A stretch of DNA of 64,000 bases, taken from an uncultured Bacteroidales bacterium. GTDB taxonomy: Bacteria; Bacteroidota; Bacteroidia; Bacteroidales; VadinHA17. The DNA lies in assembly GCA_963765005.1 (NCBI GenBank), contig CAVXUP010000008.1, forward strand, positions 244,396-308,395. Direction: 5' to 3'. The notes beneath the pieces were generated by a model. That model was not told the origin of the DNA and made no database searches. It was given only the letters and a program-made list of their open reading frames with translations. A program made the translations under genes and the position numbers. This document shows positions 23,981 to 26,612 of the stretch, piece by piece; position 1 is the stretch's first letter, and every line of letters starts with the position of its first letter.

Positions 23981-24517
23981 TCAGATAGCAACACTATCAG
24001 GCTTCTTTTTAAAGCGGTCGAATCCTTTGCCCATATCGCCCTCTCCGATTATCGGGAACAAGGCTGGAATGATATCTGAAACCGGGTTATAGAAGATCGA
24101 CTTCTCAATTGTCTCTTTTGGAAGAAAAGGCCTGTGAGCATCAATTGCATTCATAATAACGAATGCTACACTGAGTATCAGCATCGATTTCAAAAGCCCG
24201 AAACCTATTCCGAGAAGCTTGTTTACAAAGCCAAGAGCAACGGCGTCGACAAGTTTATCGGCAATGACTCCTATAAAATGAATAACAACAACAATAAGCA
24301 CAAAGGTTACCAGAAAGGCAAGAATCCCTACATATGAGCCGGTCATGTCAAAATAATCATAAAGCTTTGCGGCAGTAAACCCCGAGAATTTAATTGCGCC
24401 CCAGATGCCGAGGATAAGGGCGAGCAGTGAGGCAGCCTCCCTTACAAACCCGTTTGCAAATCCCGTAATCATCGATATTCCGAGAATAATTACAATAGCC
24501 AAATCGATCCAGTTCAT
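23981..24517 (-). CDS. cvpA: CvpA family (colicin V production) membrane protein
   Basis: MNWID......GF..GFVRE, NKLLG..FG.LK. Confidence 0.9.
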
Positions 24518-24622
24518 AATAAGAAATTTAGTATAGATCAAAGATAATTTATTTTGTTACCCTATGAAACAGGGATGAGATGAATTGACAATTTAGTACG
24601 GCAGGATGCTTTCCCGAACCGG

Positions 24623-24712
24623 TCAGACACGCACGACACACGATGCACGACGCACGACGCACGGTTACGATGCACGTCATTCCTTTTGCCGTGAGCCGTG
24701 AGTCGTGAGTCC
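24623..24712. repeat. Inverted pair of heptamer tracts (GCACGAC)n ... (CGTGAGT)n
   Basis: gcacgacacacgatgcacgacgcacgacgcacgg ... ccgtgagccgtgagtcgtgag. Confidence 0.75.
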
Positions 24713-24724
24713 TTCATTTTTACA

Positions 24725-24755
24725 TTTGATTTGACAAAAAAAATTTATAATTTTG
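24725..24755 (+). promoter_or_regulatory. Bacteroidota sigma-A promoter (TTTG -33 / TAATTTTG -7) upstream of the tRNA-Arg/GIY-YIG cassette
   Basis: TTTG at 24725-24728, 19-bp spacer, TAATTTTG at 24748-24755. Confidence 0.7.
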
Positions 24756-24768
24756 CAACTGAAATTTT

Positions 24769-24836
24769 GGCCTCATAGTTCAATGGATACCTGCCTGCCG
24801 GCAGGCAGGGAATGGAGGTTTACATAATAAGATTCA
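24769..24836 (+). pseudogene. Degenerate 5' copy of tRNA-Arg interrupted by a 20-bp palindrome
   Basis: GGCCTCATAGTTCAATGGATA+[CCTGCCTGCCGGCAGGCAGG]+GAATGGAGGTTT matches tRNA nt 1-33 at 25075; then degenerate up to AGATTCA. Confidence 0.9.
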
Positions 24837-25112
24837 ATGGCATATACAGTTTACGCCATAATGAGTGATGTTGACAACAGGATATATGTTGGATTTACGA
24901 AGAATTTTGATGTTCGTTTAAAGGAGCATAATCAAGGAAAAACGAAATCAACGAAGGGCTACAGACCTTGGAGATTGTTTTATAAAGAAGAAGTTGGCAC
25001 AAGAATTATTGCAAGGGAACGAGAAAAGTATTTAAAAAGTGGATGTGGTAAAGAGTATTTGAAAAGTAAATTAAGGCCTCATAGTTCAATGGATAGAATG
25101 GAGGTTTCCTAA
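24837..25112 (+). CDS. Stand-alone GIY-YIG nuclease
   Basis: YTVYAI..IYVGFT..RLKEHN.G..KSTK..RPW..REKYLKSG; the last 12 codons and the stop lie in the tRNA. Confidence 0.92.
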   Translation: MAYTVYAIMSDVDNRIYVGFTKNFDVRLKEHNQGKTKSTKGYRPWRLFYKEEVGTRIIAREREKYLKSGCGKEYLKSKLRPHSSMDRMEVS

Positions 25113-25146
25113 ACCTTAGATTCAGGTTCGATTCCTGGTGAGGCTA
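25075..25146 (+). tRNA. tRNA-Arg (anticodon CCT)
   Basis: GGCCTCA-TA-GTTC AATGGATA GAAT-G-GAGGT TTCCTAA ACCTT-AGAT-TCAGG TTCGATT CCTGG-TGAGGCT-A. Confidence 0.97.
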
Positions 25147-25148
25147 CA

Positions 25149-25193
25149 AAAATGACCCCTTACGTAATTATACATGAGGGGTTTATTTTTTTT
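25149..25193 (+). terminator. Intrinsic terminator after tRNA-Arg
   Basis: ACCCCT..AGGGGT stem followed by a T-run. Confidence 0.7.
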
Positions 25194-25215
25194 ATTCCTC
25201 AGATGGAATGTAATT

Positions 25216-25242
25216 TGGCTCCGATTACAAATCGGCGCCAGC
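25216..25242. repeat. REP-like palindrome TGGCTCCGATTACAAATCGGCGCCAGC
   Basis: CCGATT-ACA-AATCGG stem with outer TGGC/GCCA arms. Confidence 0.5.
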
Positions 25243-25262
25243 GATGACAACCAGAATAATAA

Positions 25263-26612
25263 TCAATATTTCCTCTTCAGCCACTCCTCAGGAACAGGAA
25301 TAATGCAAATATTCAGGGATTTCTTGTCTTCCGACAGCATCGCTGACTGAATTTCGATTTTTGTGCCGTCGGCGCTGAAAGTAGGATGCGGATGGTCAGA
25401 AGCAGTCTCCAGATGACCGGCAGAAAGCAGGATCATTTCACGTGTATGCCGATCGATAAGCCAGATGTCTCTCTTAAAGTCGTCGCCAACCGCCCAGCGG
25501 CCATCCGATGAGCCGTTAACATGCCACAGCCCGCTGCCTGAGGCTGTCTGTCCTGCAATTGTCATCTCCCTTGTTCGCAGGTTAACGATACCCAGGCCTG
25601 TTGGTTTTTCGCGGGTTCCTGATGGTCCCCATGCAGATTCCTGACCAGGATTTTTAGGATCAGCCGCAACGTTAGGAGTTCCCGGCTTTCGATGGCCCAT
25701 TATTGCAATCGCCACTTCGTCTTTCGATATTACGGCCTCATGAGTCACCCACTCATATTCAGATTCAGGATATAATGCCCTCAGACCGCTTCCATCAGAC
25801 ATTACCGTCCAGGTACGCTGAGGGGCCTTGCCTCCGGTTTCCCAGCAGAATACTATCTCCCCCGGAACCCAGGGGTTTGTCTGGATATGTCCGACCTGAA
25901 AAGGCACTGCAACTACAAATTCCGATTCTCCGGTCTTCAGATCCATGCTCCCGATTCCTGAAGGTCCGGCACCCATGTTTCGGGGGCCGAAATTAGCTTC
26001 GATTTTTGTTCCTTCCGGAAGGTGTTTAGCAGCCTCATCTTTACCTGTCCTGAAATAGACAACCTTCTCATCAGCATCAAGTGCCATATCTCCTCCGGCG
26101 CCCATTTCAGCAGGAGTTGTTCCGCAAACTCTCTGATATTCAGCTGCCGCTTTCAGAGTGTTTTTTTCACTGTCGGCAAAAAGTTTTGCCAGGTCTACCT
26201 CAATAACCTGAACAGGACCTCCTCCCCGTGAAGTTGAACCGGCCTCCCGGGGTGTATTCCTCATAAAATACAGTTTCATCGATCTCCTTGCAACACTGAG
26301 CATTCCGGTGAAGCCCCCCTCTGAGACCTGAACGATAACCCCGGTTTTTTCATTTACTGCCATAGCCTCTCCCCTTACCCTGTTTGACCGGAATATCACC
26401 CATTCCCCGTCGGAGGTCCACTGGTTATGAGTCTGGTAAATTTTTGAATCGCCGGCCGGTTTGCTTGTCAGAAAGGTAAGCTGAGTGCCGGTAACAGGAT
26501 CTGTAACAACCTTTTTCTCCGAGGGGAATCGGGTTCCGATCTGAGCCAGGGCCGACCCTATGGAAAAAGAGATAAAAATTACTACTGATAAAAGGAGGGT
26601 CTTTTGTTTCAT
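25263..26612 (-). CDS. Oligogalacturonate lyase-family beta-propeller protein
   Basis: TDPVTG..LTFLT, IYQTHNQW..DG, FCWE, HE, DHPHPTFS.DG; likely start MKQKTLL with signal peptide. Confidence 0.8.
   Translation of the reverse strand: MKQKTLLLSVVIFISFSIGSALAQIGTRFPSEKKVVTDPVTGTQLTFLTSKPAGDSKIYQTHNQWTSDGEWVIFRSNRVRGEAMAVNEKTGVIVQVSEGGFTGMLSVARRSMKLYFMRNTPREAGSTSRGGGPVQVIEVDLAKLFADSEKNTLKAAAEYQRVCGTTPAEMGAGGDMALDADEKVVYFRTGKDEAAKHLPEGTKIEANFGPRNMGAGPSGIGSMDLKTGESEFVVAVPFQVGHIQTNPWVPGEIVFCWETGGKAPQRTWTVMSDGSGLRALYPESEYEWVTHEAVISKDEVAIAIMGHRKPGTPNVAADPKNPGQESAWGPSGTREKPTGLGIVNLRTREMTIAGQTASGSGLWHVNGSSDGRWAVGDDFKRDIWLIDRHTREMILLSAGHLETASDHPHPTFSADGTKIEIQSAMLSEDKKSLNICIIPVPEEWLKRKY

What the first reader, a model, noticed from the sequence alone, without database searches (positions are those of the whole stretch)
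24725..25193. Candidate tRNA-targeting mini mobile element: dead 5' tRNA-Arg copy, GIY-YIG nuclease, intact tRNA-Arg
Seen: a TTTG/TAATTTTG promoter is followed directly by a duplicate of the first ~50 nt of tRNA-Arg(CCT). This copy is exact for nt 1-33 apart from a palindrome insertion and is degenerate over the anticodon arm up to AGATTCA. The ATG of an AT-rich 91-aa GIY-YIG nuclease follows with no gap. The ORF has no stop of its own: it reads 12 codons into the intact tRNA and ends at TAA 25110-25112 in the anticodon loop. No integrase or transposase is nearby. Known: GIY-YIG domains drive homing endonucleases, and most tRNA-integrating elements duplicate the 3' end using a recombinase. Inference: a ~306-bp selfish unit (tRNA 5' part + nuclease) that spreads at tRNA 5' ends by cut-and-repair and uses the tRNA promoter. 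RNase P processing of the tRNA would cut the nuclease mRNA before its stop codon, tying nuclease expression to tRNA maturation.
Basis: partly seen in the sequence, partly recalled or inferred. Interest (0 to 1): 0.85.

Follow-up and report, generated by a model that had tools for sequence, protein, structure and literature searches.

The report
Selfish mini-nuclease cassette parasitising tRNA genes
A 306-base cassette (a dead front half of a tRNA gene carrying a 20-base palindrome, plus a tiny GIY-YIG nuclease gene that runs into the real tRNA) belongs to a widespread, apparently undescribed family of elements that live at bacterial tRNA genes.

Summary
Window 24769-24836 is a partial tRNA-Arg(CCT) copy: nt 1-21 and 22-33 are exact, split by a perfect 20-bp palindrome (PAL, 24790-24809). 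A 79-aa GIY-YIG core follows and reads 12 codons into the only tRNA-Arg(CCT) gene.

This is a family trait. In 80 related loci, mostly Bacteroidota plus MAG records titled as seven other groups, 77 hold a tRNA. Of 88 ORF units, 58 abut a tRNA 5' end and 42 of those stop inside the tRNA. PAL or a near copy lies upstream of 61 units, nearly always at TA^GA in the D-loop.

Within the genus the same cvpA-tRNA site is empty in 14 species, occupied in four, and holds a remnant in one. Tandem arrays occur.

My best reading (0.6) is a selfish free-standing nuclease cassette. I infer that it cuts tRNA genes and spreads or amplifies through recombinational repair, using tRNA-derived repeats as homology. 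Phage SegB is the closest precedent.

Cleavage, PAL's role and RNase P gating remain inferred. I found no description in print.

The parts
24725..24755 (+). Promoter of the tRNA locus: TTTG at 24725-24728 and TAATTTTG at 24748-24755. By inference it now drives the whole cassette plus the tRNA.
   Evidence: Motif scan: the only TAnnTTTG sites between cvpA and the tRNA are at 24721 and 24748. Species with an empty site have the same A-run/TAnnTTTG block 13-14 nt before their tRNA. The consensus itself is recalled. Promoter activity was not measured.
24769..24836 (+). Disabled 5' copy of tRNA-Arg(CCT). It comprises nt 1-21 (24769-24789), the palindrome (24790-24809), nt 22-33 (24810-24821), 8 degenerate bases (24822-24829) and nt 44-50 AGATTCA (24830-24836).
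   Evidence: Relatives keep nt 22 to about 50 almost intact right up to the ATG (L109, L112, L142, L129).
24790..24809 (.). PAL, the perfect 20-bp palindrome CCTGCCTGCCGGCAGGCAGG, inserted in the D-loop at TA^GA (tRNA nt 21/22).
   Evidence: Found 10 times in the window's own genome, against 0 for the reversed control pattern. An exact copy lies upstream of 35 of 88 related ORF units, and a copy with at most 4 mismatches upstream of 61 of 88. Of 71 copies with at most 1 mismatch in the 80 loci, 54 sit at TA^GA. As RNA it forms an 8-bp hairpin in the minimum-free-energy fold.
24837..25112 (+). GIY-YIG nuclease ORF of 91 aa. The family core is about 78-82 aa. The last 12 codons are tRNA sequence, and the stop TAA is tRNA nt 36-38.
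   Evidence: In the 24-sequence alignment the invariant residues include Y6, Y17, G19, R27, N32 and E63, and H31 is nearly invariant. The closest solved relatives by sequence are the UPF0213 proteins 1ywl and 1zg2, then SLX1 and I-TevI.
25075..25147 (+). Intact tRNA-Arg(CCT), the only gene of this isoacceptor among the 38 tRNAs ARAGORN calls in the genome.
25154..25192 (+). Hairpin followed by a T-run. It is terminator-like and closes the transcription unit.
   Evidence: Read directly from the sequence. Empty alleles have analogous hairpins after the tRNA. Termination was not measured.

Best explanation
The cassette is a selfish, free-standing mini GIY-YIG nuclease gene specialised to live at tRNA genes.

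Its stable form has four parts in order: the tRNA promoter; a disabled tRNA copy (nt 1 to about 50) with the palindrome PAL in the D-loop; the nuclease ORF; and an intact tRNA. The host keeps its essential tRNA, and the ORF sits in that tRNA's 5' leader.

Shown:
- the anatomy of the cassette;
- its recurrence across a family of related loci;
- its tie to several different tRNAs;
- presence, absence and remnant states at one orthologous site;
- tandem arrays.

Inferred:
1. The nuclease makes breaks in tRNA-gene DNA at conserved loop-coding motifs. The PAL insertion sites TA^GA and TTC^GA mark the likely spots.
2. Recombinational repair copies or amplifies the cassette, using the two tRNA-derived repeats as homology. 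Because tRNAs are conserved, the same arms would work in other species.
3. Recombination between the repeats removes the cassette again, which would give the empty sites.
4. PAL breaks up the repeat and the candidate cut site in the disabled copy.
5. The ORF is translated only from the unprocessed precursor. RNase P cleavage at tRNA +1 would remove the stop codon, which would keep nuclease levels low.
For: Anatomy.

Family-wide tie to tRNAs:
- 27 of 32 loci around homologues in 41 related genomes hold a tRNA; two pairs of these loci overlap.
- 77 of 80 loci from the species-representative collection hold a tRNA. Two of the three exceptions lie at contig ends.
- The own genome has 38 tRNAs in 4.38 Mb, so a random 3.2-kb stretch would hold one about 3% of the time (my arithmetic).
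- Of 88 ORF units, 58 end at most 25 nt before a same-strand tRNA. In 42 of those 58 the stop codon lies inside the tRNA; 26 use TAG at tRNA nt 8-10 and 5 use the anticodon-loop TAA as in the window.

Several host tRNAs: Arg(CCT) in 56 units, then Asn(GTT), Arg(ACG), Arg(TCT), Met, Phe and Arg(CCG). The upstream copy matches the local tRNA in each case.

PAL: an exact or near copy lies upstream of 61 of 88 units. It is also present in loci whose record titles name Gammaproteobacteria, Parcubacteria, Omnitrophota and Planctomycetia.

Presence and absence at one site:
- Of 17 cvpA loci in the genus that carry tRNA-Arg(CCT), 2 are occupied, 14 are empty with the same promoter, and 1 keeps only about 45 nt of the ORF's 3' end.
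- Two further occupied cvpA-adjacent sites appeared.
- On a CvpA tree of 32 genomes the 6 occupied ones need 6 changes. Occupied species sit next to species with empty sites: G010 beside G007 and G073, and G069 beside G064 and G062.

Tandem arrays: 2-4 units in 6 of 80 loci, two units in G033, and six units of a paralogue in G003.

Precedent: phage T6 SegB, a GIY-YIG enzyme, cuts inside tRNA genes with preferred motif RAWTSGAAC. It drives recombination-dependent tandem amplification of a tRNA-Tyr plus segB unit, whose junction joins the tRNA 5' end to the segB 3' end (PMC13096335; sections read).

Conserved catalytic-type residues argue for an active protein.
Against: - No cleavage, transfer or expression was observed. 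No RNA run held the locus, and the DNA contigs laid did not span it.
- The intact tRNA next to the cassette keeps the same D-loop sequence as the empty alleles. A nuclease cutting there would also cut its own host copy, so simple immunity by target disruption does not hold.
- The protein is a bare catalytic core of about 79 aa with no DNA-binding domain, unlike characterised GIY-YIG homing enzymes.
- No relative was found in 50,697 phage records or 72,556 plasmid records at E <= 1e-6. Only 2 loci came from the viral-contig scan, and one of them is a 22-aa remnant. No vector for horizontal spread is therefore evident.
- The protein tree (78 columns) is poorly resolved, with 4 of 77 inner branches starred. 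It shows family-level clusters such as Pedobacter, Chitinophagaceae and Prolixibacteraceae, so much of the inheritance looks vertical. Cross-phylum rows rest on MAG labels.
- The link between PAL and the ORF is only partial at genome level. In 300 phylum genomes, 6 of 21 with a close ORF have exact PAL, against 20 of 279 without one.
- PAL also lies in many non-tRNA repeats with other flanks.
- PAL and the ORF are separated by target-derived tRNA sequence, which no simple single-insertion model explains.
Confidence: 0.6

Rival explanations
1. The duplications are a passive by-product and the ORF is a passenger. Partial tRNA duplications and hairpin insertions arise at tRNA genes in these genomes by replication slippage, unequal crossing-over or a separate hairpin-inserting process. 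The GIY-YIG gene merely persists there, sheltered by overlap with an essential tRNA, and its nuclease does not drive its own spread.
For: In the own genome 9 of 38 tRNAs carry an upstream partial copy of their own 5' part, and 3 more a downstream copy of their 3' end. Only 3 of these tRNAs lie beside a GIY-YIG gene. ORF-less units exist with a hairpin at the same D-loop site, for example tRNA-Arg(CCG) at G000:C5:89731-89806 and tRNA-Gly in L172. PAL occurs widely without a close ORF: 20 of 279 phylum genomes.
Against: All three GIY-YIG genes of the genome lie at tRNAs that carry such copies. The ORF-to-tRNA junction is precise to a few bases in 58 of 88 units across many taxa. Catalytic-type residues are conserved. 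SegB shows that a GIY-YIG nuclease can cause exactly such amplifications.
Confidence: 0.14
2. It is a domesticated host gene. A small UPF0213/SLX1-like nuclease with a housekeeping or repair role is co-transcribed with a tRNA for expression, inherited vertically and often lost.
For: The closest solved relatives are cellular UPF0213 proteins and SLX1. The tree shows family-level clusters. Copy number is low, at 1-3 matches per genome. The family was not found in the phage and plasmid collections.
Against: Distribution is patchy among near relatives, with empty orthologous sites and one remnant. Only 21 of 300 other phylum genomes have a close homologue. The host tRNA changes between clades. Tandem arrays occur. 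A housekeeping gene has no need of a disabled tRNA copy and a palindrome.
Confidence: 0.13
3. It is an addiction or defence module. The nuclease is a toxin, and the structured leader RNA (pseudo-tRNA with hairpin, in places as tandem repeats) is its RNA antidote or decoy, in the manner of type III toxin-antitoxin systems.
For: The order promoter, structured repeat, ORF resembles the recalled type III layout. In the own genome 3 and 9 tandem pseudo-tRNA units, then the tRNA, precede the two paralogous ORFs; a hairpin with a T-run follows the tRNA in the one locus printed in full (L002). The overlap with an essential tRNA makes loss costly.
Against: There is no similarity to known toxin families beyond weak homing-endonuclease matches in PADLOC (E 0.0018). 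Pseudo-tRNA arrays also stand without any ORF, for example tRNA-Arg(TCT) x8. GIY-YIG enzymes are DNA nucleases as far as is known (recalled).
Confidence: 0.08
4. It is a remnant of an integrase-mediated island, a tRNA intron, or an assembly artefact.
For: Partial tRNA copies are the usual scars of integrating elements (passages of bioRxiv 10.1101/2022.07.05.498093 seen).
Against: None of the five flanking ORFs is a recombinase. The insert is only 306 bp, and the duplicated part is the 5' end. No intron ribozyme or other RNA family was found at E <= 1. The architecture recurs in many independent assemblies.
Confidence: 0.02

Closest known systems
SegB of phages T4/T6 (free-standing GIY-YIG homing endonuclease in the phage tRNA cluster)
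   Same: It is a GIY-YIG nuclease gene lying among tRNA genes and it cuts inside tRNA genes. It drives recombination-dependent tandem amplification of a tRNA-plus-nuclease unit whose junction joins the tRNA 5' end to the nuclease gene's 3' end. Its preferred motif RAWTSGAAC resembles the PAL insertion sites ATA^GAA and TTC^GA. Source: PMC13096335, abstract and sections 7, 9, 10 and 12 read; supplements not seen.
   Different: SegB is a phage gene. As I recall it is roughly 220 aa with a DNA-binding part. It has no palindrome, no disabled tRNA copy and no ORF-tRNA overlap. The window protein scores below the cut-off of the related NCBIfam model TIGR01453 (23.7 against 56.05 bits). No relative of the window protein was found in 50,697 phage records.
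UPF0213 (YhbQ-type) proteins and SLX1 structure-specific nucleases
   Same: These are the closest solved relatives by sequence: 1ywl at E 2.5e-7, 1zg2 at E 7.3e-7, and SLX1 at 3.7e-4 to 0.07. They share the same roughly 80-100 aa bare GIY-YIG core.
   Different: I know of no link of those proteins to tRNA genes, palindromes or mobility. This is recalled and was not searched specifically.
Mobile endonuclease ORFs of fungal mitochondria that carry a piece of their target gene (Allomyces atp6 type), and mitochondrial GC-rich palindromic clusters
   Same: A free-standing endonuclease ORF is inserted in a conserved gene, and part of that gene is duplicated so that function is kept. Short GC-rich palindromes spread in AT-rich DNA. 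Both points are recalled from memory. No paper was read here.
   Different: Those are organellar, target protein-coding genes and use in-frame fusion to the target. Here the target is a bacterial chromosomal tRNA gene, and the duplicated part is the 5' portion.
Integrase-borne genomic islands and prophages in tRNA genes
   Same: An intact tRNA and a partial copy flank the inserted DNA (passages).
   Different: Those are kilobases long, encode an integrase and usually duplicate the 3' end. This cassette is 306 bp, has no recombinase among the flanking genes scanned, and duplicates the 5' part.
Group I introns with homing endonuclease genes in bacterial tRNA genes
   Same: A homing-type nuclease is associated with a tRNA gene.
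   Different: No ribozyme is present (no Rfam match), and the space between the copies is filled by the ORF. The tRNA is regenerated by duplication, not by splicing. Only the search listing of PMC3984707 was seen.

Membership tests
GIY-YIG nuclease superfamily (Pfam PF01541) | Profile match above the curated cut-off | tested here: met
   E 9.6e-16, 58.3 bits against a cut-off of 22.6, covering residues 3-68.
GIY-YIG nuclease superfamily (Pfam PF01541) | Conserved Tyr...Tyr-x-Gly, Arg, His/Asn and Glu positions of the catalytic core (which residues are catalytic is recalled) | tested here: met
   In 24 aligned homologues Y6, Y17, G19, R27, N32 and E63 are invariant, and H31 is present in at least 90%.
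GIY-YIG nuclease superfamily (Pfam PF01541) | Metal-dependent nuclease activity | not testable with these tools
   Needs purified protein.
Free-standing homing endonuclease gene | Presence/absence polymorphism at one orthologous site | tested here: met
   At the cvpA-tRNA-Arg(CCT) site, 14 species are empty, 1 holds a remnant and 2 of 17 are occupied. Occupancy is scattered on the CvpA tree.
Free-standing homing endonuclease gene | The enzyme cleaves the empty allele near the insertion site | not testable with these tools
   The site is inferred only from the PAL insertion points.
Free-standing homing endonuclease gene | The donor allele is protected from cleavage | tested here: not met
   The intact tRNA beside the cassette has the same D-loop and T-loop sequence as the empty alleles. 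Only the disabled copy is interrupted.
Free-standing homing endonuclease gene | Separate DNA-binding domain giving a long target site | tested here: not met
   Family length is mostly 78-82 aa, and the catalytic core fills the protein. Fused longer forms were not searched for.
SegB / group I intron endonuclease family (TIGR01453) | Profile match above the cut-off | tested here: not met
   23.7 bits against a cut-off of 56.05, covering residues 5-39 only.
Integrase-type tRNA-integrating element | A tyrosine or serine recombinase inside the insert or beside it | tested here: not met
   The insert holds one 91-aa ORF. The five flanking ORFs have other Pfam families.
tRNA group I intron | Self-splicing ribozyme between the tRNA halves | tested here: not met
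   The only Rfam matches at E <= 1 in 24000-26000 are the tRNA and two weak matches unrelated to introns.
Type III toxin-antitoxin system | ToxN/AbiQ-type RNase toxin with a repeat RNA antidote | tested here: inconclusive
   PADLOC gives only weak homing-endonuclease and PDC-S14 matches. The repeat-then-ORF layout exists for paralogues. No functional test was possible.

The most novel reading that the evidence does not exclude
The nuclease and PAL form a two-part mobile system. The 20-bp palindrome would be a minimal mobile DNA that the nuclease places at TA^GA and TTC^GA sites. The ORF would ride next to it inside a self-repairing tRNA duplication. The tRNA halves would serve as portable homology arms, letting the cassette home into the same tRNA in distant phyla. 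RNase P processing of the host tRNA would strip the mRNA's stop codon and so throttle the nuclease. The ORF-less pseudo-tRNA arrays with other hairpins would then be non-autonomous relatives.
Probability: 0.22. Interest if true: 0.9.

Novelty: new variant of a known kind. Interest (0 to 1): 0.77.

Why it matters
If correct, many Bacteroidota, and by record title some other phyla, carry a roughly 300-bp nuclease cassette inside the transcription unit of essential, often single-copy, tRNA genes.

- It would be one of the smallest protein-coding selfish elements known.
- It would be a chromosomal counterpart of phage SegB.
- It would be a natural case of a gene whose stop codon lies inside a tRNA, so that tRNA maturation and translation of the mRNA compete.
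- It would explain the partial tRNA genes and odd tRNA calls that clutter annotations of these genomes.
- It offers a compact nuclease plus a defined 20-bp palindrome for biochemical study.
- Carriers include records titled as cultured strains (Cyclobacterium, Pedobacter, Echinicola, Algoriphagus, Mangrovibacterium, Sphingobacterium), so the ideas can be tested directly.

Tried and rejected
RNA and read evidence: the look-up of sequencing runs listed no RNA holder. The best DNA holder had 0.25 of the sampled words. Laying contigs of four runs gave only short pieces from relatives, and none spanned the cassette. This gave no evidence on expression, processing or strain-level polymorphism.

Homodimer prediction for the 79-aa core returned 'no answer' with score 0.03. 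It is not evidence either way.

Phage and plasmid vectors: no tblastn match at E <= 1e-6 in either collection. The viral-contig scan gave 2 loci, one of them a remnant beside tRNA-Arg(TCT).

Defence and phage family libraries gave only weak homing-endonuclease-type matches.

PAL as strictly nuclease-dependent is rejected in its strong form. Genome-level overlap is partial, and PAL has other flanks outside tRNA copies.

PAL as simple target-site immunity does not protect the intact tRNA.

A promoter inside the ORF for the intact tRNA: no TAnnTTTG was found there.

The protein tree was too short (78 columns) to settle horizontal against vertical descent.

Literature: seven searches found no description of a bacterial GIY-YIG cassette at tRNA genes or of the palindrome. 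Subscription journals and supplements were not searchable.

The species-representative sets behind overlap, so their loci are not all independent.
Full report
**What is in the window**

ARAGORN and Rfam place one tRNA-Arg(CCT) at 25075-25147. It is the only gene of that isoacceptor among the 38 tRNAs called in the 4.38-Mb genome.

Upstream, tRNA nt 1-21 recur exactly at 24769-24789 and nt 22-33 recur exactly at 24810-24821. They are split by a perfect 20-bp palindrome, PAL (24790-24809). Eight unrelated bases follow, then AGATTCA (tRNA nt 44-50), which runs straight into the ATG at 24837.

The ORF (24837-25112) is a GIY-YIG domain protein (PF01541, E 9.6e-16). Its last 12 codons are tRNA sequence and its stop is the anticodon-loop TAA.

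The only Bacteroidetes-type -7 motifs between cvpA and the tRNA lie at 24721 and 24748, upstream of the partial copy. None lies inside the ORF. A hairpin with a T-run follows the tRNA. The five flanking ORFs are ordinary genes with no recombinase.

**The cassette is one member of a large family**

Homologues of 78-82 aa are common in metagenomes and genomes and are named only 'GIY-YIG nuclease family protein' or 'putative endonuclease'. Several end in the same tRNA-encoded tail as the window protein.

In 41 related genomes, 27 have a homologue, and 27 of the 32 loci fetched hold a tRNA.

A scan of one genome per species returned 80 loci at 48-73% identity. By record title they come from Bacteroidales, Cytophagales, Sphingobacteriales, Chitinophagales and Flavobacteriales. 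Some MAGs are labelled Gammaproteobacteria, Chlorobiota, Omnitrophota, Planctomycetia, Bdellovibrionales and candidate-phyla groups. Seventy-seven of the 80 hold a tRNA.

Of 88 ORF units in those loci:
- 58 end at most 25 nt before a same-strand tRNA;
- in 42 of those 58 the stop codon lies inside the tRNA, most often the TAG at tRNA nt 8-10 (26 cases);
- the other 16 stop 1-9 nt before the tRNA.

The host tRNA is Arg(CCT) in 56 units. It is also Asn, Arg(ACG), Arg(TCT), Arg(CCG), Met or Phe, and the upstream copy matches the local tRNA. In Chitinophagaceae loci the upstream copy is still readable to about nt 50, directly before the ATG. This shows that the window's AGATTCA is a true remnant.

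**The palindrome is part of the element**

Exact PAL lies 32-97 nt before the ATG in 35 of 88 units. A copy with at most 2 mismatches is present in 57, and with at most 4 mismatches in 61.

Of 71 copies with at most 1 mismatch in the 80 loci, 54 sit at TA^GA, 6 at TA^GT and 2 at TC^GA. In tRNA terms these are the D-loop (nt 21/22), the junction at nt 26/27, and the T-loop.

Mirror forms exist, with the order intact tRNA, ORF, then a PAL-bearing partial or full copy. Full-length tRNA genes carrying PAL also occur, always beside an intact copy.

PAL is multi-copy in the own genome (10 copies; reversed control pattern 0) and in 11 of 40 relatives. It is multi-copy in five of five distant carrier genomes, with 4-14 copies including 1-mismatch copies. 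Many of those copies lie in non-tRNA repeats with other flanks.

At genome level the tie to the close ORF clade is only partial. In 300 phylum genomes, 6 of 21 with a close ORF have exact PAL, against 20 of 279 without. PAL's role is therefore unresolved. Candidate roles are:
- interrupting the repeat and the likely cut site in the disabled copy;
- serving as a site for the nuclease;
- forming a stabilising RNA hairpin.

**Evidence of gain and loss**

In the genus, 17 of 30 cvpA loci carry tRNA-Arg(CCT) beside cvpA.
- Two are occupied (G000, G010).
- Fourteen have no cassette between cvpA and the tRNA. These have the same promoter block directly before the tRNA as lies before the window's partial copy.
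- One (G062) keeps only about 45 nt of the ORF's 3' end fused to the tRNA.

A second search found close ORFs in 8 of 61 genus genomes, including two more cvpA-adjacent sites. On a CvpA tree the six occupied genomes need six changes, and they sit beside species with empty sites. The tree rests on a single gene, and its strongly supported branches force only two changes.

Tandem arrays of 2-4 units occur in 6 of 80 loci. A paralogue forms six units after tRNA-Pro in G003.

**How it most likely works**

The closest experimental precedent is phage T6 SegB. It is a GIY-YIG enzyme that cuts within tRNA genes, prefers RAWTSGAAC, and needs its catalytic residues and the phage recombination proteins. 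With these it generates tandem repeats of a tRNA-Tyr plus segB unit, joined between the tRNA 5' end and the segB 3' end.

By analogy, I infer that the window's nuclease breaks tRNA-gene DNA at loop-coding motifs, and that repair between the tRNA-derived repeats copies, amplifies or deletes the cassette. The arrangement always leaves one intact tRNA. Because the ORF overlaps that tRNA, sloppy deletions would be lethal. Co-transcription from the single promoter and loss of the stop codon on RNase P cleavage follow from the anatomy and from general knowledge of tRNA processing. Neither was observed.

**Points against this reading**

- The intact tRNA keeps the putative target sequence.
- The protein has no DNA-binding domain.
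- No phage or plasmid copies were found.
- The protein tree shows much vertical clustering.
- PAL and the ORF are separated by target-derived sequence.

**Comparison and novelty**

By sequence the protein is nearest to UPF0213 proteins and SLX1, not to SegB or I-TevI. It falls below the TIGR01453 cut-off.

It works like a free-standing homing endonuclease gene, but it fails two usual features: a DNA-binding domain and donor-site protection. It is not an integrase island, an intron or a recognised toxin-antitoxin system.

Seven literature searches found no description of it. I rate it a new variant of a known kind, with high interest.

Noticed in passing
G000:C9:65808-66451; G000:C8:122099-122815 (L003); G000:C1:111263-111432 (L002): Head-to-tail arrays of ORF-less pseudo-tRNA units stand directly upstream of three tRNAs: 8 x 88 bp before tRNA-Arg(TCT), 9 x 86 bp before tRNA-Asn and 3 x 72 bp before tRNA-Lys. 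Each unit keeps tRNA nt 1-26/28 exactly. In each, a TCCCGA..TCGGGA hairpin replaces the anticodon arm. The Asn and Lys loci also carry distant GIY-YIG paralogues just downstream of the tRNA.
   Followed up: partly
G000:C5:89731-89806: An ORF-less copy of the window's architecture lies before tRNA-Arg(CCG). It has nt 1-21, a different 20-nt GC-rich hairpin at the same D-loop TA^GA site, nt 22-35, a short spacer, and then the intact tRNA.
   Followed up: partly
G000, 9 sites outside the window; L143-L162: PAL also sits inside several unrelated intergenic repeat families, at hairpin tips or between short direct repeats, in this genus. G007 has 9 copies but no close ORF.
   Followed up: partly
L072, L085, L102, L118, L184: Full-length tRNA genes carry PAL in the D-loop, always next to an intact copy. 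ARAGORN calls three of them (in L072, L085, L184) as tRNAs of unknown type, 93-96 nt long. Whether they are dead or processed is unknown.
   Followed up: no
L045 (G075): The same cvpA-adjacent tRNA-Arg(CCT) has no upstream cassette here. A different GIY-YIG paralogue (44% identity) lies immediately downstream of it.
   Followed up: no
L018 (G025): A cluster of eight tRNA-Val-like genes and pseudogenes with odd anticodon loops is interleaved with two GIY-YIG copies.
   Followed up: no
window 24630-24716: GC-rich short repeats (CACGAC / CGTGAG type) lie between cvpA and the promoter. The 24628-24668 part drew high summed contig depth from metagenome runs, so it is probably a common simple repeat.
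   Followed up: no
L164 (viral contig): A 22-aa remnant of the nuclease's C-terminus abuts tRNA-Arg(TCT) near the start of a viral-labelled contig. This may be a prophage-host boundary.
   Followed up: no
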